IMG/VR virus record: IMGVR_UViG_3300001589_000008
Location: 1-63,624 of that record
Length of the DNA: 63,624 bases
Origin: a virus
Taxonomy: Duplodnaviria > Caudoviricetes
Strand: one strand, 5' to 3'
In this document: positions 2,527-36,900 of the stretch, in pieces
Layout of the letters: every line of letters starts with the position of its first letter
Numbering within the stretch: the stretch's first letter is position 1
The notes under the pieces: generated by a model
Databases searched by the model: none
What the model saw: the letters and a program-made list of their open reading frames with translations, nothing else
Told to the model about the DNA's origin: nothing
Program-made: the position numbers and the translations under genes

Positions 2527-4267
2527 CAGTTACGTCAGTATTACCTTCAGCTCCCGCATCTCCTCCAGTTGGTAGTTCTGCACCAGCATCAGCTGTACCT
2601 CCTTCGATAGGACCCTCAGCATCAGGTGCTTCGTCTTCCATGCCGCCAATATCTCCAGCAATTCCTGCACCGCTAATACCAGCGCCTCTCATTTCGCCTT
2701 CTGCATCAGCTGGCATTGGATCTAAAGTTTCATCGTTTTCTTCACGCCATAAACGTTCATTTTCTGCAACTTCTTCTGCCGACATTCCTAAAAATCTTTT
2801 CATCGCAAATCTATTTGAAATATATGGTATAGCAACCATCTGTGTAAATGTTGGAATACGTGCATTATCAATTTCAGATTGTCTATAACTTGCAAAGTTT
2901 TGTGGTGGTTGGAATCTTAAATCAAACATTGCTGTATCAATATTAATTCCTTTTTCTAATACATAACGTTTAAATTCTTGATTTAGTTCCTCTACAACTA
3001 AATTTTGTAATCTTTCGCAATACGTATTAAATCTTAATTCTTGTATATATGCTGTTCCTACTCTTCCGTCGTTGTATTGTGCGGCTGAATCATCTGCACC
3101 AGTAGGTAGATAGCTTGAAGGAATACGCAACCCACGAACCAACTTGTTAGTAAAGTATCTAAGGTCATCAATTTCTCCTAGGTTAGTACCACCAGGTAAT
3201 GTTTCTACCTTAGATCCACGACCTTCAGCAGTTTGTGGAAAGAAATAATCTTCATTAATTGATAAAGGATTGTAACTACTGTCTATAACATTAGTGCCTC
3301 CGCCTGTACTACTTGGGATCCTGCGTTGGTGGATCTCAGTTTTTACACGCTCAACAAATTGCATCGCTAAGTGCGATGGCATATTGCCGACATCTACATA
3401 GAACACCCTGCGTTCTGGAGCACGTTGTACCCTGTAGATGATAATAGCATCCTCTAGTAATTCTTTTTGTTTATATACTTTAAATATAGTTTCTAATAAA
3501 CTATTACCAAACGGATAATTTTGATCTAGTCCTTCACTTAAACTTAAATGTACAATATTATCTGCATCAACCGAAATTTCTCCGTCTTCAGTACTAAATC
3601 GTGATCCTGATTGTTGTGGAGCATTTCCTACCATACCTCTAACACCACCAGCTGGTTGATAGTTTCCACCACCGCCGTTTATATTTCCACTTGTTACATG
3701 TGGAGTAGTAGCAACCATATCCTTAAAGTTTAAATTAAAGTTTTTAATAACATATTGCTCTGGAGTTTTTCCTTCGCTTTCGTTTACAATAATTCTGTTA
3801 ACATTTGCACCGTCTACATGGAATAGTTTTTTAGTTTCTGGATCTCTAATAAAAAATTGATCACCATACTTAAAACAGTTCCTTAGTATTCTAAACATAC
3901 GTGTTTCAAATTTGTTTAACTTACACCATTGCTGTAGATATTGCTGTATGATAGTAGTTTCTGTATTTGTAGATTTCTTTTTGAAGTCTATAGTAAATGG
4001 GGTTCTATTCTGTGAATTTTGCTGTGAACAGAATTCTGCTAAGATATCAAGAGCCGCATTAACTTCTGAATCCATATCCATAGTGTTATACTGCCCATAA
4101 CGTTCAACTCTATTTGGGCTACCTACATAAACATCAGGTAAGTATGAACTATAATTAGTTCTTGCTGGACCTGGATTTCCGCCACCTCTTCCGCCACCTA
4201 ACGGCGAGTAGCTTCCTCCCATGTTATCACCTGTTTGAACAGGTGTAAAATATTTCTTCCAACTCAT
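2522..4267 (-). CDS. gp20: Portal vertex protein (T4 gp20-like)
   Basis: LLEDAIIIYRVQRAPERRVFYVDVGNMP, EDYFFP...GRGSKVETLPGGTNLGEIDDLRYF and LRIPSSYL are hallmark gp20 motifs. Confidence 0.96.
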   Translation of the reverse strand: MSWKKYFTPVQTGDNMGGSYSPLGGGRGGGNPGPARTNYSSYLPDVYVGSPNRVERYGQYNTMDMDSEVNAALDILAEFCSQQNSQNRTPFTIDFKKKSTNTETTIIQQYLQQWCKLNKFETRMFRILRNCFKYGDQFFIRDPETKKLFHVDGANVNRIIVNESEGKTPEQYVIKNFNLNFKDMVATTPHVTSGNINGGGGNYQPAGGVRGMVGNAPQQSGSRFSTEDGEISVDADNIVHLSLSEGLDQNYPFGNSLLETIFKVYKQKELLEDAIIIYRVQRAPERRVFYVDVGNMPSHLAMQFVERVKTEIHQRRIPSSTGGGTNVIDSSYNPLSINEDYFFPQTAEGRGSKVETLPGGTNLGEIDDLRYFTNKLVRGLRIPSSYLPTGADDSAAQYNDGRVGTAYIQELRFNTYCERLQNLVVEELNQEFKRYVLEKGINIDTAMFDLRFQPPQNFASYRQSEIDNARIPTFTQMVAIPYISNRFAMKRFLGMSAEEVAENERLWREENDETLDPMPADAEGEMRGAGISGAGIAGDIGGMEDEAPDAEGPIEGGTADAGAELPTGGDAGAEGNTDVTV

Positions 4268-4276
4268 ATAATTTTC

Positions 4277-6793
4277 CTAATTATAGTCACCACTTAAACT
4301 TCTGTAACCTTGTTTGTTTATAACATTACCTAAACGTAGTACTTCTAAGATACTTGCATTAGTAGTATTTAACATCGTAAGCTGATCTGAGCTACCCGAT
4401 CCGGACCCGCTACCTCCCGGTAATTTAGTATTACCAGCATTATCGCCTTTATAAAAAGGTAACCAACTATTATCTTTAGTCAATTCATCATTAATTTTTC
4501 CAAGAGCATCGCCCAACCGTTCCATTTGCTTTGCGTATTCTTTTAACCCACTAGCATCTAAATCATCACCAAACTTTGATAAACCTTCTAATGCAGTACC
4601 ACTTAGTTTTACATTGTCAATAGCTGTTGCATCAATACCTTTAAATTTATTTAAACCTTCAACAATTTTATCAAAAGGTGAATCAGCACCAAAGAAACTA
4701 GTAATACTATCTAGTACCCCACCAGCAGTAAGTGATATTAGTGCAGGTCCTAGTAATCCAAGTGATGTAGAAATTTCTGCAAAGTTTGCCGCGCCTTTCA
4801 TGTTAGCCATTTTTTCAACACCTGCGGCAATCTTTTCAACACCGTCTCCGGCCAATGAAATACCTTTTCCTGCAAGTGTTATTGCGGCGCCAGTACCAAT
4901 AAGCATAGCTGTAAATACTGCGGCACCAATTGCTACTGGTCCGTTTGCAAACATTTTTAATATTGTAGTAAATGCTTTAAATCCTAGATATACAACACCA
5001 CCAGCCGCAAGCATTGCACCTAATCCAGCTAGTCCAGCGCCTATTGTTGCTCCTGCAATCATTTTAAGTATGTCACCAAGTGCTGTAAAGCCGTTATCGG
5101 CAGCCATATCTGCACCATTTCCACCACCACCTGGTGGTCCTTCTTGTTTTACAGCCTTTTTACCAAATATAGCATCCATAGCCATTTGTTTTAATCCACT
5201 AAGTGCTGAACTAATATGAGGTTTCATTAGTTCTCCTAGTTTTGATAATCCTTTTGACAAATATACTCCTATGGTTTCCATAAGATTACCTTTTTCAAAT
5301 GCTGTAACAAGTCCTTTTAGGTGTTTGGAAAATGTATCAACATACCCTTGTACAACAACCATATCAAATCCACTTAGTGCATCTCCAACTGATACTAAAG
5401 CATCTTCAACTGTAGCAAACACTCCTGATTTTATTAATGCATCTGTTATCTTATTCTTAAGTTTTTGAATTTCTGTACTAAACGCTGTTAGTTTATCTCT
5501 TCTATCTTTAGCCGCCTTTTCTTCTTTTTTTCTAGCGGCTTCTGCTTCTTTATCAGCTGCCGTCATCTTTTTCACACTTAAATCAACGGCTGTGCCAATA
5601 GTATTAAGTTTTTCTGCAAGCTCGTTACCTTGCTTAGCCGAAACAGCCAAGTTCTTCTTAACTGCATCTGGCATAGCGTTGTACGCTACTTGAGCATCAG
5701 ACATTGCCTTATCAAATGCTTCTTGTGAAATTGTGCCTTTTTTCAGTTGTTCAACCATAGTACCTAGTTCAGGATTTAATTTTAATAAGGCCTTACCCAT
5801 CATAGTTGTTGGAACACCGTTAGTGACTACCATATCAGCAAGAGCATCACCAATCTCTTTATTTTTAGCAGTATAAAATGCTACAGTATTTCTTACTGCT
5901 TCTTCTTGTTTTCCTAATGTTTTTACATATGCTTCAAAGTTTACGTCTGCAGATCTAGCATCCATTTGATCAGCAAGTTCTCTTCTTGACTTACCTGTTA
6001 ACTTAGACAGTCTATCAAGTTCTAGTACGTATGCTCTAGCACCGTCAGTTTGTTGCTTTGAAGTCATTTGTTGAAATCTAGCACCTCTAGCCTGAATCTT
6101 CATGTAGTCGGCGGTAAACTCGCCCACTTCAGACATTGTTAATCCTAAGCTAGTAAATTGAGACGAATTTTTTGCTAGGGTAGCTTGTAGTTTACCAAAT
6201 TGTCTTACACCGGCGCCGCCGTTCATATTTAAACTTGCAAACACTTCTGAACTATTCATAACAATGCTTTTAAAGCTATCCATATCCATAGCAGTTGAGG
6301 CCGCAATTTTTCTAAATTCTTGTAAGCCTCCACCTACATCAACACCTACTGCTGACAACTCTCTAAAGTCTTCAATTTGATTATCTATTGTAGATACTAA
6401 TAACTGTCCAATAGACGCTAATGGTCCACCAAAAATAGGTATTGCACTAGCCGCACCTGCAATGTGACTAGTAAAGTCACTAATCTTAGTTCCACCAGTT
6501 AATAACTCCCCAGCTAACCCTTTAGCCGCACCAAATACTTGGCCAATACCTCGAGATAATGCATTACCTGCATTATCAGCTGACTCTTCTAATTCGTCTA
6601 ATTCTTTAGATGTTTTTCCAGTTTGTTTAGCTAGGTCTAATAGAGAGTCTTTAGCACCTCCGGCACCTCCGGCTCCTCCTCCACCACCGCCGCCCTGTTG
6701 CATAGCTTTAAGTAGCTGTTTTAAAGTTGCTTCGGTGGCCGCGTTCTCGAGGTTTACTTCCTCTTGACCAATAGTACCTGTAACTTCTGCCAT
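4277..6793 (-). CDS. Probable tail tape measure protein
   Basis: 838 aa, Ala/Gly/Leu-rich helical sequence with hydrophobic stretches; N-terminal NAATEATL motif; divergent from the gp26-like gene. Confidence 0.7.
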   Translation of the reverse strand: MAEVTGTIGQEEVNLENAATEATLKQLLKAMQQGGGGGGGAGGAGGAKDSLLDLAKQTGKTSKELDELEESADNAGNALSRGIGQVFGAAKGLAGELLTGGTKISDFTSHIAGAASAIPIFGGPLASIGQLLVSTIDNQIEDFRELSAVGVDVGGGLQEFRKIAASTAMDMDSFKSIVMNSSEVFASLNMNGGAGVRQFGKLQATLAKNSSQFTSLGLTMSEVGEFTADYMKIQARGARFQQMTSKQQTDGARAYVLELDRLSKLTGKSRRELADQMDARSADVNFEAYVKTLGKQEEAVRNTVAFYTAKNKEIGDALADMVVTNGVPTTMMGKALLKLNPELGTMVEQLKKGTISQEAFDKAMSDAQVAYNAMPDAVKKNLAVSAKQGNELAEKLNTIGTAVDLSVKKMTAADKEAEAARKKEEKAAKDRRDKLTAFSTEIQKLKNKITDALIKSGVFATVEDALVSVGDALSGFDMVVVQGYVDTFSKHLKGLVTAFEKGNLMETIGVYLSKGLSKLGELMKPHISSALSGLKQMAMDAIFGKKAVKQEGPPGGGGNGADMAADNGFTALGDILKMIAGATIGAGLAGLGAMLAAGGVVYLGFKAFTTILKMFANGPVAIGAAVFTAMLIGTGAAITLAGKGISLAGDGVEKIAAGVEKMANMKGAANFAEISTSLGLLGPALISLTAGGVLDSITSFFGADSPFDKIVEGLNKFKGIDATAIDNVKLSGTALEGLSKFGDDLDASGLKEYAKQMERLGDALGKINDELTKDNSWLPFYKGDNAGNTKLPGGSGSGSGSSDQLTMLNTTNASILEVLRLGNVINKQGYRSLSGDYN

Positions 6794-11151: not shown

Positions 11152-11177
11152 GAGTAATCCTTAAACATTATTAATTG

Positions 11178-11183
11178 TATTTA
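11178..11183 (-). promoter_or_regulatory. Late promoter core TAAATA
   Basis: TATTTA on + strand, 26 nt upstream of the ATG at 11151. Confidence 0.6.
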
Positions 11184-11184
11184 G

Positions 11185-11205
11185 TGTATTAACTTCGTTA
11201 ATACA
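11185..11205. other. Perfect 9-bp hairpin TGTATTAAC-TTC-GTTAATACA
   Basis: Inverted repeat seen directly in the sequence, abutting the late promoter. Confidence 0.7.
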
Positions 11206-11265
11206 AGTTTTCGTTAACACTCAAACTACTTACACTTCGTTTTGATTAAAACAGTTAATATATGA

Positions 11266-11645
11266 GAAGTAATTAAAGCATTATTACGTAGTAATAATGT
11301 AAATTGCTTCATGTAGATTGTTTCAGTCAGACGGAACCTGTTTACGGTCCCATCTAATCTTGACTTCATGTGAGTTCGTCACAGCCGAGACTTGGAAGTA
11401 GGTAATTGTTTATACACTTAGTTCAATGGGCTCTGACCTTACCCAACCTACGTCGACATCGCTTACGCTACCTCTCGCTTCGTTCCTTTTGCTAAAGAGT
11501 TTTTATGAACTGTGTTGTGTTTTTTGACTGGCAACATCCAATCTACGTCAATCCTGCGCCTTACTACCAGACGTGACTCAACGTGTTACGTGTGTTCCTA
11601 TACGGATACGTTTTACACAGCGGTATATTAACCGGCCCGCTAACC
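11266..11645 (-). ncRNA. Putative large structured non-coding RNA downstream of the GIY-YIG nuclease
   Basis: ORF-free and more GC-rich than its flanks. Nested pairings: 11313-20/11539-46, 11324-29/11525-30, 11380-85/11509-14, 11386-90/11473-77, 11398-403/11446-51. A 10-bp hairpin 11329-11355 pairs fully only on the minus strand (G-U wobbles). Boundaries are approximate. Confidence 0.65.
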
Positions 11646-12077
11646 TTAAGTGTTGCTTAATTTGCCTAAATGTTCTTTTAGTATTTGAGATCCGCCAACT
11701 CTAACATTGATAATACCATTATAGTATTCGTCAGTTTCGAGTACTCTGCGTTCAAACTGCTCACGTGCCTCTAAGTAACTTGCAATGCCTCTACTTGGAC
11801 AAATATGTATAATATCTCTAGTAAAGTTTTCTTCGCCTAAATTTTTAACGTCTTCGTTAAGTCTATCACTAGATCCCCAATAGTCTTTCCAGTCACTTTC
11901 TTTAGTTCCACGTCTTTTATTTTTTTTGCCTTTTAATGGTGGCTTAGTTGTCTTAAATTTTGCTAGTTTCTTGCCTACGTACTTCATGCCATTAGTCTTA
12001 TTTGTTATCAAGTAAACAAATGCTTCACATCCTTCTGGTAGTGCTTCAATTTTCTTTCCTTGATAAGTCCAATGCAT
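11646..12077 (-). CDS. GIY-YIG endonuclease (T4 endonuclease II/denA-like, single domain)
   Basis: AFVYLITNKTNGMKYVGKK...SDWKDYWGSS...YLEAREQF...YYNGII. Confidence 0.85.
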   Translation of the reverse strand: MHWTYQGKKIEALPEGCEAFVYLITNKTNGMKYVGKKLAKFKTTKPPLKGKKNKRRGTKESDWKDYWGSSDRLNEDVKNLGEENFTRDIIHICPSRGIASYLEAREQFERRVLETDEYYNGIINVRVGGSQILKEHLGKLSNT

Positions 12078-12090
12078 ACGGTACTTATTT

Positions 12091-12294
12091 TTAATCGCCT
12101 TTATTTGCCTCTTTTTTGGCTTTATGCTTCAAATGTATTTCGTCGCTTCTAAGTTTAGCATACTTTCTTATCTCACGCAACCATTTTCTGCTTTCTGCAT
12201 GTGTTCTATGAGAGTTTCTTGCTTCAAAGTTTTCATTTGCTTTGAAATATGACAAATATGATTGGACTAATGCGTCATGCGGATCCTCATTCAT
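12091..12294 (-). CDS. Hypothetical protein
   Basis: 67 aa, ATGA-coupled to gp46. Confidence 0.7.
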   Translation of the reverse strand: MNEDPHDALVQSYLSYFKANENFEARNSHRTHAESRKWLREIRKYAKLRSDEIHLKHKAKKEANKGD

Positions 12295-14063
12295 TCCAAA
12301 ATCTCAATGTCGTTTTCGTAGCTAGTAAATCCGTTCTCTTTAATAACTTTCATTACATTATTAACTCTTCCAATAAGTTCGTCTTTGTGCGATATGAGAT
12401 AAACGTTCTTATCTCCTTCTCTTCCCATCTTTTTTAGAACAGCTAACGAATTTTCTACCCCAGCTGTGTCCATTCCACTATCAATGAGCTCGTCAATAAA
12501 CAATAAATTTATCTTTTGATATAAACTTTCCCAAACATCACGGAAAGAAAAGCTCATACCAAGTATAAGTCTATTACGTTCGCCTCTACTTAAATTATCA
12601 AAGTCTAAATCTTGTCCTAACTGAGTAATCTCAACGTTTAAGTCATTCTGAAACACTACTTGGTGTGGCAATCCTAACTTATCAAGATAATATGTAAGCC
12701 TGTTGTTGAGATACATTAGGTTTTGGTCAATAATTTTCTTTCGAATAAAGCTATCCTTATTTGTAAGTAGCTTTAATAGAAAATCTTGGTGATCCTTAAA
12801 TTCAGTTAGGCTATTTACAACACTCCAATTAACTTCTTGCATAGCACTATTATTTAATTCATCAATTTGTGTTTGATAGGGATCAGTATCCTGCTCTTTA
12901 TTAGTTAGTGCTTGTTTTAAACTATCAACATTCTGTCTATGCTCGTATGCTTCTTTAGCATTATCATAAAACGTGGTAGGTTTGCCATTAATATCACCTA
13001 TATTATCCAATGCTGACATAACTTCGGTTACTTTACTTGAAATCTCTAACTGATATGTAACTGCATCGTCCATTTCTTTGTTTTTACGTTCTACAATTTC
13101 TGTTTTTTTGTCTCCTTGTAGCTCTTGTCCACAAGTATAACACTTAGCATCCTGTAAATCTGCGATATCTTTAGATGCCTTCTCAATACTTTTGTCAGCA
13201 CGTATTAGTGCAGGCTCTAATGTGCTTAATTCTTTTTTAAGAGCCAAAATAGCTTTATTATGTTCAGTCCAATTAGAGAGTTGTTCATGTGAATCAAGTT
13301 CGACGTCGATATCTAAGTGTTCTAACTCATCAATACTTAATTGTAACTTTTTTACGTCTTGACCTTTCTTAGATAGCCATGCACGTTGCGTTTTTTGTAA
13401 ACTTCCAACAGTTGCACTAATTTTTTCGTTTGCAGACTGTATAGCATTAATTTTTAATGTCTCTTCTTGAATTGCATCTTTTGTTTGACGTGTTTGCTCT
13501 TTAAGTGCATCTGCTTTTTCACTTAGAATAGTGATACCTAATAACTGTTCAATAATAGCACGTTGGTCATTTTGCCGCATACTTAAAAACGGCTCAGTGT
13601 AGGTGTTTAGTGCAAGAATATGCTTAAACATATCGTGACTCATATCAAGTAAGTCGTTAATATATTCTTGTGTCTTACGTGAATCGCCTTGGGACTCGTC
13701 TGTCATTTCTTGTTCTTGGTTATCAACATAGAACTTTAATATATTAGGACTACGTCCCCGTTCAATACGGTAGTCTACATTGTTTTTTCCAAAGTGTAAT
13801 GTTACTAACATGCCTTTGCTGTTAGTTTTATTGATTAAGTTATTACGTTTGATATTTGTAAGTGCAGTTCCGTATAATGCATAACTTAATGCGTTAATAA
13901 TAGTAGTTTTACCAGTACCGTTACGTGAACCAGTATCATCGCCACCTTGATCTAAGTTTTCTCCTAACACAAGTGTTAAGTTCTCTTTATCAAAGTCGAC
14001 TGCTTGGGTCTGATTGCCCACACTCATAAAGTTCTTTACAGTTAAATCTTTAATTTGTATCAT
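12291..14063 (-). CDS. gp46: Recombination exonuclease ATPase subunit (gp46/SbcC/Rad50-like)
   Basis: KNFMSVGN, Walker A NGTGKTT, zinc hook CYTCG, signature LSRGE, Walker B LFIDE, ISH. Confidence 0.96.
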   Translation of the reverse strand: MIQIKDLTVKNFMSVGNQTQAVDFDKENLTLVLGENLDQGGDDTGSRNGTGKTTIINALSYALYGTALTNIKRNNLINKTNSKGMLVTLHFGKNNVDYRIERGRSPNILKFYVDNQEQEMTDESQGDSRKTQEYINDLLDMSHDMFKHILALNTYTEPFLSMRQNDQRAIIEQLLGITILSEKADALKEQTRQTKDAIQEETLKINAIQSANEKISATVGSLQKTQRAWLSKKGQDVKKLQLSIDELEHLDIDVELDSHEQLSNWTEHNKAILALKKELSTLEPALIRADKSIEKASKDIADLQDAKCYTCGQELQGDKKTEIVERKNKEMDDAVTYQLEISSKVTEVMSALDNIGDINGKPTTFYDNAKEAYEHRQNVDSLKQALTNKEQDTDPYQTQIDELNNSAMQEVNWSVVNSLTEFKDHQDFLLKLLTNKDSFIRKKIIDQNLMYLNNRLTYYLDKLGLPHQVVFQNDLNVEITQLGQDLDFDNLSRGERNRLILGMSFSFRDVWESLYQKINLLFIDELIDSGMDTAGVENSLAVLKKMGREGDKNVYLISHKDELIGRVNNVMKVIKENGFTSYENDIEILE

Positions 14064-27300: not shown

Positions 27301-27906
27301 ATAAGTGATGAAGTAATCTATCATCCGGTAAAATATAAAATACTTTTTGGTGAATCAGCGGAGACTAGTTTGCAAGCAACTTTTAAAATAGTAAAAAATA
27401 CAGAAACAGTTACAAATGATAACGAAATTAAATCAAATGTAATAAATGCAATGAATGAATATTTTAGTTTAGAAAATTGGGAGTTTGGAGAATCTTTTTA
27501 CTTCTCAGAACTATCAACATATATAATGAATCAAAATGCACCTAATATTAGCTCTATAGTAATTGTTCCAAACGAAGACACTCAAGCATTTGGTTCATTA
27601 TATGAGATTAAAGCAGAGTCAGATGAAATTTTTATAAGTGGTGCAACCGTTTCAGATGTAACTATAATAGATAGTATTACAGCAACTAGGTTAAAAGCAT
27701 CAGGAACTGTTATAACAGCAAGTACAGAAACAGCAAATACCGGAATACAAAGTTCTAGCACATCATACAATTCCTCAATTAACTCTGGAAGCTCAAGCAG
27801 TTCAAGCAGTTCAAGCAGTTCAAGCAGTTCAAGCAGTTCGGGTAGCTCAGGTAGCTCAGGTAGCTCGGGTAGCTCGGGTAGCTCAGGCGGAGGGTATGGC
27901 TACTAA
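24328..27906 (+). CDS. gp6: Baseplate wedge subunit gp6-like
   Basis: DFDNLRRTMISYL...FNDYIESS...ENFLELAERRESVLRLARLLSYNP; FSDGTFGELP; ESNESIKRNAP...QNRMITGEDY. Confidence 0.9.
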   Translation: MSTTDRQNRLLVAEDWKRVYQSFRNADFQSYDFDNLRRTMISYLRTNYPEDFNDYIESSEYLSLIDLIAFLGQNISFRIDLNARENFLELAERRESVLRLARLLSYNPKRNQAAQGLLKVTSISTSEEVVDSNNFNLANQEIQWNDPTNTDWYEQFIKIMNSALPVNGTFGRPLKKETVDGVPHQQYRFNAVNTDIPKYGFNKTVQGSSLDFEVVSTDINADLKSVEEEIPLTANSFAYLFKDDGKGPSSSNTGFFCMFKQGSLDSGQFVVNNPTTNQIIDIDATNINNDDVWLYKLDSTGQESEYWTKVEAVEGNNVIYNSISKKIRTIYSVLTRVSDRVSLVFSDGTFGELPKGVFKVFYRTSNNQRYVIKPQDLTGIQVRVPYLSRANVIETLTLNLELKYTIANSSTSESNESIKRNAPSTYYTQNRMITGEDYNVAPLGVSQDIIKVKAVNRFASGISRYYDLLDATGKYSSTNLFANDGIVYKEELVKKDSFSYTTQTDIESAITNKVEPILKDRRVLNYYLTNFTKIITSDLKAEWVQVTTDTNRGTGYFIDETDAKYKVGSFTANNLRLIEAGSLLKFEAPTGFHFMVGDKTTLMAGSPNHPGSLSYKWVKVTSVNGDGTTNTTTGLGPIVLNDSIPSNALLTEVRPKLSTKILDSVKTQIIDQAFANNTFGLRYDVSTRQWRIITEVNLNTTNAFSTGKTGDVSSQNLDASWLLWFKTDGEKYDITYRALRYVFESDTEIKFYYDSSDKIYDNKTGKIIKDKIEVLSINTQPGSTTPFTTDYNWEITKEYRDVDGYVDTKKIEVGFFDEDDDGVVDNPNSFIDIVAETVAPTTKYIFQKLYTTTDGVEDFKYVTTSVENITVLTSESAMGAYSSYDANEVFYYIDTGLFKQLSANKLILTQISTYKAFLGRPNLKFRYVHAADNNKRIDPSSTNLIDTYLLTRLYDITYRQWLNGDVTTQPLPPSSDQLYRSYGVELDKIKSISDEVIYHPVKYKILFGESAETSLQATFKIVKNTETVTNDNEIKSNVINAMNEYFSLENWEFGESFYFSELSTYIMNQNAPNISSIVIVPNEDTQAFGSLYEIKAESDEIFISGATVSDVTIIDSITATRLKASGTVITASTETANTGIQSSSTSYNSSINSGSSSSSSSSSSSSSSSSSGSSGSSGSSGSSGSSGGGYGY
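27793..27885 (+). repeat. Two 9-bp tandem arrays: (TCAAGCAGT)x5 and (GGTAGCTCR)x5
   Basis: They encode the poly-Ser and (GSS)n tail of gp6. Confidence 0.95.
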
Positions 27907-30900
27907 TGGCGTACGATGATCAAAAAGACTATCCACTTCCATTTAATGGAAAACCAGGTAAAAGAAGAACGTCAGAATTATTACCAAAATATTTCCGATC
28001 AGACACAAATGAAAAGTTTTTAGGATCTACAATTGATCAAATTACTTCTCCGGGAACAGCTAAAAAATTAAACGGATATTTTGGTAGAAAGACAGCACCT
28101 GCATATAGTCCTAGCGATAATTACTTAGGTGATGTAACTACTACTAGAACTAATTACCAATTAGAACCTGCATTAGTTTCTAAGGATTTATTAAATAACG
28201 TTTCATTTTATAAAGACTATAACGATTTTAGAAATCAGCTTGATATATTAGGAGGTACTACTTCTAACGAAAGTTTATTTAATAGCCAAGAATATTATGC
28301 ATGGGACTCGGGTGTAGACTGGGATAAACTTACTAACTTCCGTGAATACTATTGGCTACCAAGCGGACCAGCACCAATTTCAATTTTTGGACAGTCTGAT
28401 GAAGTGACAAGTACATATACTGTAAATAGTATTGACAATGCTGGTAATAAAGGTTATGCATTCAACGGCAACCTAGCACAGAATCCTACATTAGAATTAT
28501 ATAGAGGCCAAACTTATATATTTGATGTAAGCACACCAGGTCTTCCGTTTACAATTAGAACTTCAAGATTGATCGAAAGCGATAATGAATATTCAACTGG
28601 TATTACTAATTCTGGTGTTGATAATGGTGTAGTTACATTTACTGTTCCTATTAATGCACCTGACAGACTATACTATGTAGCAGAAACCGATGTTAACACA
28701 GGCGGAACATTTAGAATTGCTGAAATTGAATCAAATACATCTATTGATGTTGCGACTGATATACTAGGTAAAAAAACATATACCTCAGCAAATGGTACCG
28801 AATTAATGAATGGTATGAAGCTAAATTTTACAGGTACAGTTACTCCTGAAAAATATGCAACAGGATCTTGGTATGTTGAAGGTGTTGGCGATAAAATTAT
28901 ATTAATAAAAAATACTGATTTAGTAATACCTCAAACATATTCAGCAGATGTAGAAGTATTATTTGATGCAAATAATTTTGATAACTTGCCATACGGCACT
29001 GCTAGTTCATATGCCGCTACTAAAGATTATGTTGTTATTAATAGAAGTTCTCCTGATAAAAATGCTTGGACTAGAAATAATAGATGGTTTCATAAATCAG
29101 TTCTTGAAAAAACAGCATCACTTAACGGGCAGATATTCAATATCGATCAAAGTGCAAGAGCAAAACGTCCTATTATTGAATTTAATGCAGGAATAAAATT
29201 ACATCAATTTGGTACAGAAGCAAAGGCCGAAAATGTAGATCTAATTGATACTTTTACTACTGATGTATTTTCTACTATAAATGGTAGAGAAGGATATAAC
29301 ATTGATGGTGTTGATGTTACTAATAATATGCGTATTTTGTTTACAGCTGATCCAGACTTACTTGTAAAAGATAGAATTTATAAAGTTAAAATGATCAAAC
29401 ATAATTCAACTGTATCACAGATTGCATTAGTTGAAGAAACTGATACGTTACCAATTACTAATCAAGTTGCATTAATTACTAAAGGAACTAATGCCGGTAA
29501 GCAATATTACTACGATGGAACTACTTGGAAAGTTGCTCAGCTTAAAACAAAAATAAACCAACAACCATTATTTGAATTATTTGATAACAACGGAATTAGC
29601 TTTACTGATTCTACAACATATCCAGTAAGCAATTTTGCAGGTAATAAAATTTTTAGCTATAAAGTAGGGACAGGAAAGAACGATGTTGAATTAGGGTTTC
29701 CAATTACTTATAGAGCTTTAGAAAACGTTGGTGATATAACTTTTGATTTTAATCTAGTAACTGATAGTTTTAGTTATCAGGTTAATAACACTCCGTTATT
29801 AAAAAATAGTGATGTAGGATTTTATAGAATATATACAGACATTGATAGTTTTACTTATTGCAACGGATGGAAAAAAGCAAGTACAAATACGATTTCAAAA
29901 GTTATTAGACAGTATGATGTTATTACAGCCCAAACAGATTTTAATATTGATGTATATAATAACAGTAGTACACTAACAGATTTAAAATGTGCAGTTCAAG
30001 TTAATAATAAATGGAGATTTGATTATACACTTGTAGATGTCGATGGATTTAAGACGGTTAGATTTTCAAAAGCAATTCCTGCAAATAGTAGTGTGATAAT
30101 TAAGACTAATAGTGATACAGTTAAAAATGCTAACGGATATTACGAATTTCCACACTCAATGGAAAAGAATCCAGAAAATGAAAATCTTAGTACTTTTACT
30201 TTAGGAGAAGTTAACGATCATGTTAATACTATGATTGAAGACTTACCGGGATTTGTAGGAATGTTTCCGGGACCAAGTAATCTTGCAAACCTAGGTAATA
30301 TATCTTCATATGGTAGAAAATTTTTACAATATGCAGGGTCTCCTAACACTACTGTATATCATGCTACTGATAAAGATGCAAACGTAATTAAGGCAATTGA
30401 CTATGCTAGAAAAGAGTATAGAAAATTTAAAAGATCCTTTATACAGATTGCTGATACATTAGGTTATGATGGACCTATAAAACAACATGTTGATTTAATA
30501 TTAAAAGAAGTTAGTAAAAATAAAATAAACACAGACCCTTACTATTTTAGTGATATGATCCCCTCAGAAGGATTTAAACGTTTAGAGTTTTCTGTATATG
30601 ATACAGAAAATAACTTCTTTTCTTTAAGTAAGGCACATAGTTTAAGTTCTTTATCTTCAGAGGCAGTATTAATATATAAAAATGGTATTCAATTAATACA
30701 TAATAAAGATTACACATTTAATACAGACGGATTTGCTGTTATAACAGCAACAAAAGCCAAAGATGATTTAATTGAAATATATGAATACGAAAATACAGAC
30801 GGTAGTTATATTCCACCAACTCCTAGTAAGTTAGGATTATATCCTACATATTATCCAGAGATAATTGATGATAGCACTTATCAAACTACTACTAGAGTAA

Positions 30901-33900
30901 TACAAGGTCATGACGGTAGTAAAACAATAGCATATATGGATTATAGAGATCAGTTATTACTAGAATTAGAAAAAAGAATATTTAATAATATTAAAGCAAC
31001 ATATGATACTACAAGATTAGATATACATGACTATATTCCTAGTATAAGAAGAGATACAAAGTTTAGTAAAGTACAGATTGACTCGGCAATGATGCGTGAC
31101 TTTGTACAATGGACAGAAAGTTTAGGGGGTGTTGATTACACCAGTAGTAGTAGTTTTTATGATAGATCTAATAGTTTTACATGGAATTATACAGGCATGT
31201 CAACCCGAGATAATAAAAACTTACCAGGATTTTGGAGAGCTGTTTATAAAAATGCGTATGATACAGATAGACCTCATACACATCCTTGGGAGATGCTAGG
31301 CTTTACAATAATGCCCACTTGGTGGGAGTCTGTATATGGATCAGCACCATATACAAGCGACAATTTAGTTCTATGGGAAGATTTACAAGAAGGCAGAGTT
31401 AAATCACCAGGAGTACCAATAGAAATTATTAAGAAGTATAAGAGGAAAGATCTACTTAAAAATATTCCTGTTAATGAAAGTGGACAACTTTTAAGTCCGC
31501 AAGAAGCTGGATATAGTTCAGGTTATGTATCACCTAATATTTCATCAAGTTTTAAATTTGGAGACGAAGCTCCGACAGAAACTGCTTGGAGAAGAAGTGG
31601 TGAATATCCGTTTAGTTTAATTAAGTCTTGGGTACTAAATCAACCTCATAAAGTAATGGGATTAGGATTTGACACATCTAGAATGATAAAGTCGTTATCA
31701 AATCAGTGGATATACAAAACATCAGGTACAGCATTATCGTCAAAAAGCCTAGTTTATCCTACATTAATAACAGATACAACAGAAACACATACATCAGGAT
31801 TAATTAACTATATTGTTGACTACCTAAACGGCGAAGCAACAACAAATTTTGAAACATATAAAGAAAGTTTTAAATTAATTAAAAATCAGTTAGGTATTAA
31901 ATTAGGATCTTTTACTGATAAAGATAAGTTAAAATTTATATTAGATAGTAGAACTCCTTTTAATAAAGGAAATGTATTTCTTCCAGCAGAAAATTATAAT
32001 ATTTTTCTTAATAAAAGTTCTCCGTTGTCAGTAGCATCTTATAGCGGTGTAATGATTGAAAAAGCTACAAAAGGATTTATAGTTAGAGGATATGATACTA
32101 CAAATCCAACATTTACATATAACGAGCCACAACAAACTATAAGCGACCCAAATATTAATGTTGGTGGTATATCAGAATCGTTTTTAGAGTGGGCATCAGG
32201 ACAAAGGTACTTAGTAGGTACTAATGTTAGAGATAGTAATAAATTCTATAGAGTCAAACAGAATCACACTAGTACTACTTCATTTGATGCTAATAATTTC
32301 CAGTCGTTAGTTGAACTTCCTACTACTGGCGGTGTTACCGCAGTATATAGAAAGTCTTTTGATAATAAAGGAACTGTTGTTCCTTATGGTACACTACTTG
32401 AAAGTATTCAGGATGTTGTTGACTTCTTACTTGGTTACGGAAAATACTTAGAGTCTGTAGGATTTAAGTTTGATTACTATAATAAAGAATTACAAATTGT
32501 TGAAGACTGGAAACTAAGTACAAAAGAATTTTTATATTTTACAACACAGAACTGGGCAGCCGGAACAGTATTATCAGTTAGTCCTTCCGCTACAAAGTTA
32601 GAATTTAATTCAAAGTATTCAGTTATTGATAATTTGTATGATAGCTTTTATGATTACAGCATTTTAAATGCTAGTGGAGAAAAAATAACTGAAGAATTAA
32701 CAAGGCTTAATAGAGATTCAGGAAATTTTGTTGTACAACTTAAAAATACTGCTGATGGATTGTATCACATAGTTCTTCCAACAGTACAACTTGAACATGT
32801 TATAGTTTTAGATAATAGCTCAGTATTTAAAGATGTAATATATAGTCCTGCTACAGGTTATAGGCAAGAAAGAATTAAAGTACTTGGATATGTTGCCGCA
32901 GGTTGGGACGGTAGTTTAAATATTCCTGGATTTATATTTGATTCTGCTATAATACTAAACTGGACACAATGGACTGACTTCTCTATAGGCGATATAGTTA
33001 AGTACAAAGAATTTTATTATACTGCTAATAGTGATGTACCTGGCGCAGAAATATTTGATCCGTTAAAATGGGCACGTCTAGAACAAAAGCCTAATCCAAA
33101 GTTAATGCCAAACTTTGATTATAAAATTAATCAGTTTGCTGATTTCTACGATCTTGATTCAGATAATTTTGATGCTGATCAACAAAAAATGGCACAACAT
33201 CTAATTGGTTATCAAAAAAGGCAGTATCTAGAAAATATTATTAACGATGAAGTAAGTCAATACAAATTTTATCAGGGGATGATAGCGGATAAGGGTACAA
33301 GGAATGCGATTGATAAGTTATTTGATAGTTTAGCAAGTGCTGATAAAGATAGCGTTGACTTTTTTGAAGAGTGGGCAATTAAGTCAGCACAATATGGTGC
33401 AAGTGACGGGTTTGAAGAAATTGAATACCAATTAGACGAATCTAAATTTAGACTAGAACCTCAGCCTATTGAATTGGTAAGTGTATTACCAACAGCATCA
33501 ACTGATTTGACATATAGAATTCCGCATTATGATGTATTTTTAAAGCCAAAAGATTATGAAACAAATAGACTTCCAACAAAATTTTTGAATGATGAATATG
33601 TAAAAACAGTAGGATATGTTACCGGCGAAGACGTTAACAGAGCAGTTTCGACCCCTGCAGGAATAATGAGATTTGCTACTAGCGATTTAGACAAGGGATC
33701 ATACGTCTGGGTAGCAACAGATGATCTAACATGGGATGTGCTAAAACATATTGATAGCAATATAATAGTTCAATCAATAACACAGGAAGCTCAAACTATT
33801 ACACTTAACTGTGATAGGACAGTTAATCTTGCTATTAATGATATTATAGGTCTTTACAATATAGATCAAATTGTAGGCACTGATACAACAGCAACAACAG

Positions 33901-36900
33901 TAGAAGCATTTTATACTATTACTGATGTTTTTAATAATAAGATTGAATTAACATCAGAACTTGCTGATTGGGAAAAATTATCATCACTTACTAACCTAAA
34001 TGGAATTATAACAAAGTTTGCAACACAAAGAGTTACTACATTATCTGAAGCTAATAATCTTAGCACTAAAGATTTACAATCAAAAGAAGTTATTTGGGTT
34101 GATGACGATGATACAGGTAAATGGAAAGTTATTAAAAATTCTCCTGTGTATTCTCAAGCCCAAACACTTAAAAGTAGTCTTGCTTTAGATAGTACCCAAC
34201 ATAATTTTGGACATAGTATTGCCGTAAACGAATCTAATACATTATTAGCTGTTGGTATTCCTGATAAAGGAAACGGAGAAGTACATATTTACAAACGTTC
34301 TAGTGATGCAAATAATTTAATATTTGATCAAACAATTAGTGCTCCTTCAACCTATGTTGATACGTATGATGGAAGCACAGAAATTACATCACAAAAGTTT
34401 GGTGAAAGCCTTTCGTTTAGTCCAGACGGAAAATATTTAATTATTGGATCTCCGCATGCAAGTAATGTAAAGACAGCATTTAAAGGAGAATATGTTGAGG
34501 GTAGTAATTATAATAAAAATGATATAATAAAATATGGTCCTAACTTGTTTAAAGCAATAGCAGTTATTGACGGTGCAGTTGGGTCTATTCCGTATACTAC
34601 TTTTGATTCGTATGCTGATATAGTAACAGACACTGATAGTTCGTTGCTTAACTTACTACAAACAGGCAACTATAAACTTAATAGTAAAGCAAATACAACA
34701 CACTTATTAGTTAGAGCTCCTAAACAAGCATATGAAGGCTCTCAGGCAGGAGACAGTATTGTACTAAACTGGAATAATTACAGTAGCATAAACATTCAAG
34801 GAAGTAACGTTAGTGTTGAACCGTTTGATGGAGAATTCCCACAGATAACAGGTACATTTTTAAGTGCTACTCATCCTATTGTACATAAAGTTGAAAATGT
34901 TTTACATATTGCAACGTTCCAAAACTTACCAGGTGTAGGACAAACGGTAAACAGTGCAGTTGCAAGTGGTACAGTAGCTTATGTTGGCGATGCAGACGGA
35001 TCGGCGATAGTTTATGTTAAAGATGTTAATGGAACATTTGCATCAACCGGACAGTTATTCATAGAAGATATTACTGTAGGAGATTATACAGAAGACTATG
35101 TAAATCCTTCAAGCAATGTTGGTGGATATTGGATGATAACAACACCTGCATACGAAACATCAGCAGATAGTTCAAACATATTTGTAGATCCAGGACATAG
35201 TTTAATATATGTAGATGTTATTAAGCAAGGTTCTGCTAGAACACCAAACTATTATTTTAATATTCAAGATAATATACAAGCTATTGGAACAAAAACTAGT
35301 TTAAATGATCAGATATCATTTATTGAAAGTTTTACATATGAAGGCGATCCTGGAGAAGTTTTTGCAGTACAACCTTCAAATCAGTGGGCAATAAGAGTTC
35401 CTAAAGCATTTTCAGATACAAAGACTACAGGTGATGACTTCTATCTTAAGGTTGATAATCAAAGCGGCCAAGTTGATTTAACAAGTACAGCATTTACATT
35501 TGATATACTTAATAAGCAACATACTATTGCTGATGTATGGGACGGATATATCGACTTTGTATTTGATAACTTTAGTACACTTAATCAGTTACCATTTGAA
35601 CCTGCAATTGGTAGTATAGTTAGAGATTCATCATCGGGTGCTACTGCTGAGGTTGTGTTTTATAAAAGACAGTTTAACGATGTAAGGATTTACGTAAAAA
35701 ATGTTACAGGAACATGGAGCTTAGGTGATGACTGGAGTCAAACTACTGATATTATTAGACAGGGCTCACCAGATAGAACTATGGGAGAAGTTAAAGCTGT
35801 ATCCTTAGGTACATCTGTTGTTGGTAAAATATTTATTATTACAGAAGCAACAAACTTTGCTAACGTTGCAACAACAGAACTAGTAGACAAAGAATATTGG
35901 ATCTATAATGAAATTACGTTACAGGGTATCGCTAGGGGTGCTAACATTCCTTCTAGTAATAATAATGACTGGGGACAAGTTAATAACTTAGTTGCAAGCA
36001 ATACTTCTAATGCTACAGGAAGTGGACTAACACAAGAAGGTATGATCTCTGTTTATTCAATAAGCGAAGTTAATCAATTTGAACATAACAATTCCTACGT
36101 TATTCCAGAAAGAGAAAATTTTAAAAAGTTTGGCGATGAATTACAAATAACACAAACTGGTGTCGGAGTTAATATTTTGTATAGAGTTGCTATTGCTTCA
36201 AATGGTAATAATACAGAGTCTAATCCAGGTAGTATACATTTTATAAAACACGGACGTGAAAATACTATAGGAGACACCTTTGTAGATTACGATTGGCAGT
36301 TAGATATTAATCCGTTGTTTAGAGGCGAGTTTAATATATCTACTTTTTATAAAATAAATGAAATAGTAGTATACAATAAAGAGTTATATAGTGCAAAGCA
36401 AAATATCGCTAGCGGATCAGTATTTACTATAGCAAATTGGACTAAGCTATCCAGTACTACTACGCATGTTGGGTATATACCAAGTACTCCGGAACAATTA
36501 GTTATAGGAGAAGGGATTTATACACCACAAGGCGGAATTAGAGACTTTGCTAGAAAGTTTGATCAGGATAAATTAGGACAAGTACTAATTACTAGTACCA
36601 AAATCCAAGGTAATGACAGTACAGGATCTAGAGCAGTAAACGTTTATCGACAGGTTAACGGACAATTTACTATATCTCAGACTATTACTGCACCGTATAC
36701 TGATGTAAGTACTGATACACTTACTGGATACGGCGATGCAATATCAATTAGTGCAGACGGCACTTTGATTGCTATAGGAGAGCCTTATAATAGTTCAGTT
36801 GCAAGTACTCAAGGTAAAGTTTATATCTATAAGCAAACAGCAGGAACATTTGCATTATCTCAAACGCTAACTAGCCACAATAATGAAGTCGCTGAACAGT

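What the first reader, a model, noticed from the sequence alone, without database searches (positions are those of the whole stretch)
11266..12077. Large, nested structured RNA immediately downstream of a minimal GIY-YIG nuclease: candidate nuclease-ncRNA system
Seen in sequence: this is the only long ORF-free gap (11152-11645) in a densely packed window, and it is more GC-rich than its flanks. It starts right at the GIY-YIG stop codon. It has at least five properly nested long-range helices: GTAGATTG/CAATCTAC (11313-20/11539-46), CAGTCA/TGACTG (11324-29/11525-30), CACAGU/GCUGUG (11509-14/11380-85), CGAGA/TCTCG (11386-90/11473-77) and GTAGGT/ACCTAC (11398-403/11446-51). A hairpin AGAUGGGACC/GGUUCCGUCU pairs fully only on the minus strand via G-U, which is the nuclease's strand. 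I see no tRNA, tmRNA, RNase P or group I core motifs. The 143-aa nuclease has no separate DNA-binding domain but has a basic insert (KPPLKGKKNKRRG). Inference: a co-transcribed RNA that could scaffold or guide the nuclease, analogous to the layout of TnpB/IscB with omega-RNA or HEARO. It could instead be an independent large phage RNA or ribozyme.
Basis: partly seen in the sequence, partly recalled or inferred. Interest (0 to 1): 0.9.

Follow-up and report, generated by a model that had tools for sequence, protein, structure and literature searches.

The report
New phage RNA beside GIY-YIG nuclease
The gap after a small nuclease gene in this marine giant-phage fragment encodes a real, conserved, folded RNA of a kind not yet catalogued, and the RNA and the nuclease gene stay together even when the genome is rearranged, so they probably work as a pair.

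Summary
The ORF-free, GC-richer gap is real. It holds a conserved structured RNA of about 375-400 nt on the minus strand (window about 11272-11669). The RNA matches none of 4227 Rfam families and is neither a tRNA nor a tmRNA. Over 120 marine viral contigs carry it. On 49 non-redundant members, 52 pairs in 11 helices are 98.9% paired, 22 with compensatory changes (0 of 500 shuffles reach this). Three long-range ones show no covariation, and a fourth is replaced by a local hairpin. A sister clade has a diverged second RNA type with the same architecture. In that clade the RNA follows the GIY-YIG gene in 69 of 69 usable loci, 29 of them with the pair inverted relative to gp46. The nuclease is under strong purifying selection, is predicted to dimerise, and occurs without any such RNA in other phages. 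Two short direct repeats in the RNA stay identical to each other while differing between lineages, which is unexplained. My best reading, at 0.4, is a nuclease-RNA module in which the dimer binds the two repeat modules. RNA guidance is not shown.

The parts
11646..12077 (-). Short GIY-YIG nuclease gene (143 aa, SegE-type catalytic domain only)
   Evidence: ORF. PF19835 E 1.3e-33 over profile positions 1-123 of 123. phrog_447 E 6.2e-38. dN/dS median 0.13. Homodimer predicted with score 0.71 against best control 0.00.
11272..11669 (-). Structured RNA, 'type 1' of a new family (whole conserved block: leader, core, terminal hairpin)
   Evidence: Conserved in more than 120 viral contigs. Covariation statistics. 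No Rfam match. Coordinates mapped.
11646..11669 (-). Conserved leader (UUAGGCAAA..CAACAC.UAA) that overlaps the last 8 codons of the nuclease gene; relatives have 1-5 AGGCA repeats here
   Evidence: The same leader lies directly before the RNA in loci where an extra ORF or a spacer separates gene and RNA. AGGCA repeats are seen.
11589..11640 (-). 5' domain: hairpin H1 (11637-11640 with 11620-11623); H2 (11616-11619 with 11589-11592) closing the variable hairpin H3
   Evidence: H1 has 3 of 4 pairs with compensatory changes; H2 has U-A to A-U in 11 sequences; H3 has 2 of 2 pairs covarying.
11545..11584 (-). H4 (11578-11584 with 11545-11551) closing the variable hairpin(s) H5
   Evidence: 3 of 7 pairs are compensatory (15-16 sequences each). 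There are many G-U pairs that would be A-C on the other strand.
11526..11543 (-).
   Evidence: 100% paired and 3 of 5 pairs compensatory. The long-range alternative fails.
11472..11525 (-). Invariant junction (..GUUCAUAAAAAC) and hairpin H8 (CUCUU/GAGAG) with a conserved 18-nt loop
   Evidence: H8 has 4 pairs with compensatory changes, in up to 20 sequences. GUUCAUAAAAAC is almost invariant.
11460..11471 (-). H9, a variable peripheral hairpin (a 2-bp stem with a GUAA loop here; up to about 75 nt in relatives)
   Evidence: 3 of 3 basal pairs covary.
11398..11459 (-). Core: AUGUCGAC, then helix H10 (GUAGG/CCUAC) enclosing the almost invariant 29-nt loop that holds the 18-mer used as probe
   Evidence: U-A to G-C in 10 sequences. 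The 18-mer is exact in at least 120 contigs.
11378..11391 (-). Hairpin H12, preceding repeat R1
   Evidence: one-sided G-U changes; 79-89% paired.
11364..11371 (-). Direct repeat R1 (ACAUGAAG)
   Evidence: changes in parallel with R2.
11330..11354 (-).
   Evidence: 9 pairs, 99.8% paired, C-G to U-A in 12 sequences.
11307..11329 (-). Conserved tail UGACUGAAACAAUCU and direct repeat R2 (ACAUGAAG, 11307-11314)
   Evidence: A possible long-range pairing of the tail with the CAGUU of the junction shows 10 compensatory cases.
11272..11298 (-). AT-rich terminal hairpin followed by CUUU: likely 3' end or weak terminator
   Evidence: Compensatory variants of the stem are visible in the alignment. It is not called by the G+C-dependent terminator scan.
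11174..11201 (-). Promoter-like site for the downstream gene p205 (not part of the RNA)
   Evidence: 9 of 12 matches. The region is conserved.
12091..14063 (-). Upstream genes of the same strand: gp46-like SbcC (12291-14063) and orf67 (12091-12294)
   Evidence: Synteny.

Best explanation
Shown. The gap encodes a genuine structured RNA on the minus strand, a member of a family that is not in Rfam. It consists of a leader, about eleven mostly local helices separated by near-invariant single-stranded stretches, and a 3' domain. That domain is made of two modules, each a hairpin followed by the same 8-nt motif. With the preceding 143-aa GIY-YIG nuclease gene it forms a two-part cassette. The cassette is kept together in two large clades of uncultured marine jumbo phages, across two diverged RNA types and across inversion of the pair.

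Inferred. The RNA is made as the 3' part of the nuclease transcript, or from its own promoter in some lineages, and ends at the AT-rich hairpin. It acts together with the nuclease. The nuclease works as a symmetric dimer, and each subunit binds one of the two identical hairpin-plus-repeat modules. The RNA therefore scaffolds, restrains or directs an enzyme that has no nucleic-acid-binding domain of its own. The need for both subunits to see the same sequence would explain why the two repeats stay identical while drifting between lineages.

Whether the RNA activates, inhibits or targets the enzyme is open.
For: The RNA is real.
- 120 or more contigs carry the exact 18-mer core.
- On 49 non-redundant members, 52 pairs are 98.9% paired, 22 pairs and 195 cells have changes on both sides, 0 of 500 shuffles reach this, and slid controls are 36-46% paired.
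- Frequent G-U pairs fix the strand.
- Indels and stop codons rule out a conserved ORF.

Type 2 RNA: 80 pairs are 97.8% paired, 35 of them compensatory, and 0 of 500 shuffles reach this.

Linkage.
- Clade 1: 106 of 120 motif loci have the GIY gene upstream. Of the other 14, 13 are cut within 270 nt and 1 is a chance hit.
- The gp46-anchored sample gave 44 RNA hits in 79 loci. All 16 long-flank misses examined end inside or just after the GIY gene because of insertions.
- Clade 2: the RNA is present in 69 of 69 loci that have the GIY gene and at least 450 nt beyond it. In 29 of them the pair is inverted relative to gp46.

Nuclease.
- It is constrained, with dN/dS 0.13.
- It is 70-84% identical between the clades, where gp46 is only 50-55%.
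- Predicted homodimer: score 0.71, best of 3 controls 0.00. That mark was reached by 20 of 30 proteins solved as pairs of one chain and by 1 of 23 solved as single chains. The runs agree in at least 85% of contacts, and partner pLDDT is at least 88.

Repeats. They are identical in 47 of 49 type-1 sequences over 7 nt and in 44 of 44 type-2 sequences at the variable position. At least 11 different variants are each present in both copies.

Transcription. Contigs from RNA libraries of two studies cover parts of the RNA, and one contig runs from the nuclease ORF into the RNA. This is weak, because DNA can be present in such libraries.
Against:
- The same protein family works without such an RNA elsewhere. 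Melnitz has a 72% identical copy with the same basic stretch, followed by a 148-nt gap, and there is no R1 hit in its whole genome (best E 0.65). The homologues of cyanophage S-SSM7 and Stenotrophomonas phage Ps15 are followed at once by other genes.
- Within each clade the linkage could be inherited synteny or operon structure.
- In four loci an extra ORF lies between gene and RNA, and in two loci a consensus sigma-70 promoter does, so the RNA can be expressed on its own.
- The dimer prediction is a model's confidence, made with my own 11-row alignment.
- No protein column was tested for co-variation with the repeats.
Confidence: 0.4

Rival explanations
1. An independent stable non-coding RNA gene, with a role in host takeover, translation or anti-defence. 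Its neighbour is a freestanding Seg-like endonuclease gene that sits beside it because very conserved RNA genes are good homing targets and co-convert with the endonuclease, as with T4 SegB in the tRNA and stable-RNA cluster. The two products do not touch.
For: - Some lineages have a consensus sigma-70 promoter, or an extra ORF, between the gene and the RNA.
- The nuclease gene has moved alone into an unrelated phage, Melnitz.
- The cassette sits in different contexts and orientations.
- The RNA core is almost invariant, as a homing target would be.
- The SegB precedent comes from PMC2330249 and PMC13096335; only the titles and abstracts in the search listing were seen.
Against: - The nuclease is present in every locus that reaches far enough. 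It is not patchy as homing endonucleases are.
- It is under strong purifying selection and is more conserved than gp46 between the clades.
- It lacks the DNA-binding domain of Seg enzymes.
- The RNA is never seen without it in about 280 loci.
Confidence: 0.3
2. A cis-acting 3' untranslated region of the nuclease mRNA. It would be a structured tail that sets mRNA stability or processing, or an operator through which the nuclease represses its own synthesis.
For: - The RNA leader overlaps the 3' end of the ORF, and no terminator lies between them.
- One contig from an RNA library bridges the ORF and the RNA.
- The adjacency is constant and the distance is fixed: 257-345 nt from the ORF end to the core.
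Against: - About 375 nt with eleven helices and long invariant junctions is far more than known stabilising tails need.
- In some lineages the RNA has its own promoter or follows another ORF.
- Homologues of the nuclease gene elsewhere need no such tail.
Confidence: 0.12
3. A ribozyme or self-processing RNA. The two identical repeats would mark equivalent reaction sites (cleavage, ligation or circularisation) that release the roughly 57-nt segment holding hairpin H11.
For: - Near-invariant unpaired stretches lie between covarying helices, with candidate pseudoknots among invariant segments (GUUCA/UGAAC, GGUCA/UGACU; 98.7% paired but uninformative).
- The sequence at two sites is identical.
Against: - There is no match to any ribozyme family in Rfam.
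- No joint between R1 and R2 appears in the contigs laid (coverage was poor).
- The candidate tertiary pairs never vary, so they cannot be tested.
Confidence: 0.08
4. A DNA-level element (replication origin, recombination or packaging site) whose repeats and hairpins act in DNA, not RNA.
For: - It lies between the recombination-nuclease genes and structural genes.
- It has short direct repeats that must be identical, as crossover cores are.
- The leader contains AGGCA repeats.
Against: - Many conserved pairs are G-U on the minus strand and would be A-C on the other strand or in duplex cruciforms.
- The architecture is strand-specific and always co-oriented with the nuclease gene.
Confidence: 0.04

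Closest known systems
T4 SegB, a GIY-YIG homing endonuclease gene inside the tRNA and stable-RNA gene cluster (PMC2330249, PMC13096335; titles and abstracts in the search listing only)
   Same: A phage GIY-YIG gene lies directly beside conserved RNA genes on the same strand, and the nuclease gene is able to move between genomes.
   Different: SegB has a DNA-binding region and a patchy distribution, and its neighbours are tRNAs. Here the nuclease is a bare catalytic domain, fixed and strongly conserved in two clades, and the neighbour is one large RNA of unknown class.
IscB/TnpB with omega-RNA (HEARO, RAGATH-18), the OMEGA systems (PMC13565253; two passages read)
   Same: A small nuclease gene lies next to a large structured RNA encoded in the same unit.
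   Different: Those nucleases are RuvC/HNH proteins inside IS200/605-type transposons, with a guide segment at the RNA end. Here the protein is GIY-YIG, there are no transposon ends, there is no HEARO match and no identified guide.
Large phage-associated RNAs of unknown function (GOLLD, ROOL), recalled from my own knowledge; both are Rfam families
   Same: They are long, elaborately folded non-coding RNAs, found mostly in phages or metagenomes and discovered by covariation.
   Different: There is no sequence or structure match to them. This RNA is smaller and is tied to one protein gene.
T4 gene 60 bypass element with the mobA homing endonuclease (bioRxiv 10.1101/2022.08.31.505936 and 10.1101/2024.12.09.627546; abstracts in the listing only)
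   Same: A homing-type endonuclease gene travels with a structured RNA element. That element depends on two short sequences that must match each other (take-off and landing codons) on either side of a hairpin about 50 nt long.
   Different: That element lies inside a coding sequence and acts on the ribosome. Here no conserved ORF crosses the repeats, and the identity spans 7-8 nt.
Type III toxin-antitoxin pairs such as ToxIN (recalled from my own knowledge)
   Same: A protein nuclease is paired with a repeat-containing RNA that binds and restrains it.
   Different: ToxI is a tandem array of about 36-nt repeats placed before an endoribonuclease gene. Here there are two modules within a large unique fold, placed after a GIY-YIG gene. 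PADLOC was not searched.

Membership tests
Any Rfam 15 family (4227 models, including group I and II introns, RNase P, tmRNA, 6S, HEARO, GOLLD, ROOL and the ribozymes) | Score at or above the family's gathering threshold | tested here: not met
   There were 0 matches in the whole window. At E <= 10 only unrelated low-score hits appeared: RsaA and snoRNAs in the window region, and 3 scattered hits in 9 other family members, none of them shared.
tRNA / tmRNA | Cloverleaf or tRNA-like domain with tag ORF, as detected by ARAGORN | tested here: not met
   0 genes in the window.
GIY-YIG nuclease, SegE-type domain (PF19835) | Full-length match to the domain profile above the curated cut-off | tested here: met
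   E 1.3e-33, 116.3 bits against a cut-off of 25, over profile positions 1-123 of 123. The best structural neighbours are weak but of the same fold: the I-TevI catalytic domain 1ln0/1mk0, E 0.6-1.9.
Freestanding Seg-like homing endonuclease | C-terminal DNA-binding domain after the catalytic domain | tested here: not met
   The protein is 143 aa, and the Pfam domain fills residues 3-123. An extra 87-105 aa ORF follows the gene in only 4 loci, with no DNA-binding family match.
Freestanding Seg-like homing endonuclease | Patchy presence among close relatives, and decay | tested here: not met
   The gene is present in all loci that reach far enough. dN/dS is 0.13.
OMEGA (IscB/TnpB with omega-RNA) | RuvC (with or without HNH) nuclease encoded beside the RNA | tested here: not met
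   The neighbouring protein is GIY-YIG only.
OMEGA (IscB/TnpB with omega-RNA) | RNA carries a variable guide that matches the DNA flanking a transposon end | not tested
   No transposon ends were looked for. The only fast-evolving segments are the two repeats, and no matching target was found in the 63.6-kb window.
Group I intron with internal GIY-YIG ORF | Interrupts a host gene, and has a P3-P9 core detectable by the intron models | tested here: not met
   The flanking genes are complete. There is no intron model hit at E <= 10.
Nuclease-RNA ribonucleoprotein (generic) | Physical binding of the RNA by the protein | not testable with these tools
   Only indirect evidence is available: constant adjacency, a predicted symmetric dimer, and two identical repeat modules.

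The most novel reading that the evidence does not exclude
The cassette is the first RNA-dependent GIY-YIG nuclease. The dimeric enzyme has no binding domain of its own. It is loaded onto the RNA's two hairpin-plus-repeat modules. The fast-evolving but always identical 7-8-nt repeats then act as the specificity determinant, either by pairing with a nucleic-acid target or by mimicking it. This would allow each phage lineage to tell its own DNA or RNA from that of competitors or the host.
Probability: 0.12. Interest if true: 0.95.

Novelty: categorically new. Interest (0 to 1): 0.8.

Why it matters
New large structured RNAs are rare, and they have repeatedly turned out to be ribozymes or the RNA halves of programmable enzymes. 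This one is abundant in marine viral metagenomes. It has two diverged types with one architecture, and it is locked to a very conserved, domain-less GIY-YIG nuclease, an enzyme class with no known RNA partner. Its two repeats co-vary by identity rather than by complementarity. Base pairing within the RNA does not explain this signature, which points to an outside partner that can be tested directly. If the pair is a ribonucleoprotein, it would add a new fold to the RNA-associated nucleases. If not, it is still a new phage RNA class that is ready for Rfam and for biochemistry.

Tried and rejected
- **Known RNA classes.** Rfam at gathering score and at E <= 10, on the window and on nine relatives, and ARAGORN, gave nothing.
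- **Cultured phages.** blastn of the gap found no match. gp46 places the phage near PA5oct-like jumbo phages, but the PA5oct locus has no GIY gene after gp46.
- **Bacterial genomes.** Two motif scans gave 6 and 16 loci, about the number expected by chance. Model R1 confirmed only L138, a 72.8-kb phage-like contig binned in a MAG.
- **Single-sequence folding.** Not significant.
- **RNAalifold on the full alignment.** It mispaired some invariant stretches. I replaced these using helix-level counts.
- **Third partner for the repeats.** None was found within the RNA or within 330 nt either side. The AUGU of AUGUCGAC shows one compensated and one uncompensated change.
- **Repeats as a genome-wide promoter, or as mimics of start regions.** The motif is not enriched in the window and does not match start contexts.
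- **Repeats as start codons.** This fits all type-2 sequences but not the type-1 variants AGG, AUA, CAG and CGC.
- **Coding potential.** The only ORF (47 aa, 11226-11369) is broken in relatives.
- **A second 12-nt anchor match in L285, L276 and L308.** It lies inside a 294-aa ORF and is a chance match.
- **Sigma-70 promoter or G+C-rich terminator flanking the RNA in the window.** None was found.
- **Metatranscriptome contigs.** Most of the RNA and its ends are not covered, so ends, level and strand cannot be read.
- **PDB search by sequence.** No hit.
- **Foldseek.** No hit at E <= 0.001.
Full report
**What is at the coordinates.** The window is a 63.6-kb fragment of a virus record with an estimated completeness of 18%, so the genome is of jumbo size. 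On the minus strand it carries a gp47-like SbcD gene, a gp46-like SbcC gene (12291-14063), a 67-aa ORF and a 143-aa GIY-YIG gene (11646-12077). A 494-nt gap follows, then two genes of unknown function. The gap is the largest internal ORF-free stretch of the window. Its GC content is 0.44, against about 0.25-0.36 around it. However, the sequence alone does not fold significantly better than shuffles: z -1.83 on the minus strand and -1.50 on the plus strand.

**It is not a known RNA.** Rfam 15 gave no match at gathering score in the whole window. At E <= 10 it gave only unrelated low hits, both in the region and in nine other members of the family. ARAGORN found no tRNA or tmRNA. blastn against 50,697 phage records found nothing. 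Literature searches for the core sequence, and for GIY-YIG together with RNA-guided or structured RNA, found no description. These searches cover only the held library.

**The RNA is conserved and folded.** Loci found through the downstream protein were collinear at 79-86% identity, with indels confined to the gap. Of these loci, 96 had full flanks and 73 were unique.

I aligned 49 members that are less than 96% identical. On that alignment a structure of 52 pairs in 11 helices is 98.9% paired. It has 22 pairs and 195 cells changed on both sides, 0 of 500 column shuffles reach these values, and slid controls are 36-46% paired. Many pairs are G-U on the minus strand, which fixes the strand.

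The fold consists of:
- a leader;
- hairpins H1, H3 (closed by H2), H5 (closed by H4), H6, H8, H9, H10, H12 and H11;
- a covarying AT-rich terminal hairpin;
- near-invariant junctions between the helices (coordinates).

Candidate long-range pairs among the invariant stretches exist but cannot be tested. The exception is CAGUU/GACUG, which has 10 compensatory cases.

Two elements hold: GTAGGT/ACCTAC (H10) and the G-U hairpin (H11). Three long-range helices are only 86.8% paired and have no covariation; 491 of 500 shuffles do as well, and the variants break them. Their 5' strands pair locally instead (H6). CGAGA pairs with the upstream CUCUU (H8), not with TCTCG.

**Linkage to the nuclease, clade 1.** Of the 120 motif loci, 106 have the GIY gene upstream. 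Of the other 14, 13 have at most 270 nt upstream, and one (L130) is an unrelated chance match.

A sample anchored on gp46, independent of the RNA, comprised 80 loci with gp46 81-93% identical. Model R1 was built. It was run on 79 of these loci and hit 44 of them. I examined the 16 misses with at least 1300 nt of flank. All of them have 0.7-2.5-kb insertions between gp46 and orf67, so the stored locus ends inside or just after the GIY gene.

The RNA is not always flush with the ORF. In L064, L081, L120 and L027 an 87-105-aa ORF lies between them; its only family matches are weak (PF12843, phrog_3628). In L043 and L058 a spacer with a consensus sigma-70 promoter lies between them. In all six loci the same leader precedes the RNA. 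In the window, therefore, the leader overlaps the last eight codons of the nuclease gene.

**A second RNA type and an inverted cassette.** A sample anchored on the gp46 of the most divergent member gave 80 further loci. In these, gp46 is only 50-55% identical to the window's, but the GIY protein is 70-81% identical and is present in 76 of 80 loci. R1 hit only 13 of the 80.

The other loci carry a different RNA downstream of the GIY gene, which I call type 2. It has the same order of elements, and parts of it align with type 1. On 42 sequences, 80 pairs are 97.8% paired, 35 of them with compensatory changes, and 0 of 500 shuffles reach this. This structure was derived from the same alignment by RNAalifold, which favours it in the slid control.

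Of the 69 loci that have the GIY gene and at least 450 nt beyond it, 68 carry a type-1 or type-2 marker 257-345 nt after the ORF, on the same strand. The 69th (L305) has a type-2 RNA with a compensated variant of the anchor. In 29 of these loci the gene-plus-RNA pair is inverted relative to gp46. The pair therefore behaves as a unit.

**The nuclease.**
- It matches the SegE-type GIY-YIG domain over the full length of the profile.
- It is intact in 93 of 121 sequences examined, and most of the rest are cut short.
- Its median dN/dS is 0.13 over 1991 pairs of 69 unique genes.
- It is 70-84% identical across both clades, with an invariant basic stretch.
- A homodimer is predicted through the conserved C-terminal YNGIINVRVGG region. 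The score is 0.71 against a best control of 0.00. That mark was reached by 20 of 30 proteins solved as pairs of one chain and by 1 of 23 solved as single chains. The runs agree in at least 85% of contacts, and pLDDT is at least 88. This is a model's confidence only.
- The monomer model has mean pLDDT 83.3.
- No solved structure matches by sequence. By fold, only weak I-TevI-domain and PD-T4-3 rows appear.

**Evidence against an obligate partnership.** 768 phage records hold homologues of the nuclease. The closest, in Methylophilales phage Melnitz (72% identical, with the same basic stretch), sits in another context. It is followed by a 148-nt gap and then genes, and R1 finds nothing in the whole genome (best E 0.65). 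No type-2 model was run on Melnitz. The homologues in cyanophage S-SSM7 and Stenotrophomonas phage Ps15 are followed at once by other genes.

**The unexplained signature.** Two direct repeats lie at window 11364-11371 and 11307-11314, and each follows a hairpin. They differ between lineages but match each other.
- In type 1 the first 7 nt are identical in 47 of 49 sequences, with 6 different 7-mers. Divergent members carry further variants, each present in both copies.
- In type 2 the variable base is A/A in 23 sequences, G/G in 13 and U/U in 8, so it is identical in 44 of 44. No other column within 330 nt either side is associated as strongly.
- The repeats are not complementary to each other, and no compensating partner was found.

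**Expression.** Contigs from RNA libraries of two studies cover parts of the RNA (11369-11460, 11421-11510 and 11474-11536). One contig runs from the nuclease ORF into a relative's RNA sequence. Such libraries can contain DNA, and contigs show neither ends nor strand.

**Reading.** The RNA family is real and new, and I hold that with high confidence. A functional nuclease-RNA module is the explanation I rank first, at 0.4. In it the dimer binds the two identical modules. I rank it first because it accounts at once for three things: the fixed pairing through rearrangements, the bare and highly constrained dimeric enzyme, and the identity constraint on the repeats.

The rival readings are:
- an independent RNA gene with a Seg-like neighbour (0.3);
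- a cis-acting tail of the nuclease mRNA (0.12);
- a self-processing RNA (0.08);
- a DNA-level element (0.04).

RNA guidance of the nuclease is not shown by anything here.

Noticed in passing
L064:4398-4706(-), L120:4265-4582(+), L027:4589-4852(-), also L081: An extra 87-105-aa ORF (M.RKLNWTK...WP.KGKH.GK) lies between the GIY-YIG gene and the RNA in some lineages. It overlaps the end of the nuclease ORF in another frame. Only weak family matches were found (PF12843 E 0.02; phrog_3628 E 3e-5).
   Followed up: partly
L043 and L058, spacer between the GIY stop and the RNA leader: A consensus sigma-70 promoter (TTGACA, 17 nt, TATAAT or TATACT) lies just upstream of the RNA leader. In these lineages the RNA may therefore be transcribed on its own by host polymerase.
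   Followed up: no
window 11646-11669 and the corresponding leaders of L235-L314: The leader before the first hairpin holds 1-5 copies of AGGCA(A/C), spaced about 8-11 nt apart. Their role is unknown.
   Followed up: no
L131 (Melnitz MZ577098.1) 3998-4438: A Kyanoviridae phage of Methylophilales carries a 72% identical copy of the nuclease gene in an unrelated context and without the RNA. This suggests horizontal transfer of the nuclease gene alone.
   Followed up: partly
L138 (MAG contig JBDNIA010000124.1): A 72.8-kb contig with the same gp47-gp46-orf-GIY-RNA order is binned in a Crocinitomicaceae MAG. This is either a binning artefact or a host hint for this uncultured phage group.
   Followed up: no
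many loci, between gp46 and orf67 (e.g. L167-L169, L185, L203): Insertions of 0.7-2.5 kb lie between gp46 and orf67 in part of clade 1. Their content was not examined.
   Followed up: no
window 27906-42701 (+): A single ORF of 4931 aa lies within a block of plus-strand, apparently structural genes.
   Followed up: no
window 11174-11240 (-): A conserved block lies after the RNA: GUUUGAGCGUUAGCGAAAAC, a perfect 8-bp hairpin, and a promoter-like site with a TAAATA motif before the p205 start. It is probably the control region of the downstream genes.
   Followed up: partly
type-2 RNAs, L243-L312: In all 44 type-2 sequences the variable triplet inside both repeats is AUG, GUG or UUG, which is the set of bacterial start codons. 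Type 1 has exceptions (AGG, AUA, CAG, CGC).
   Followed up: partly
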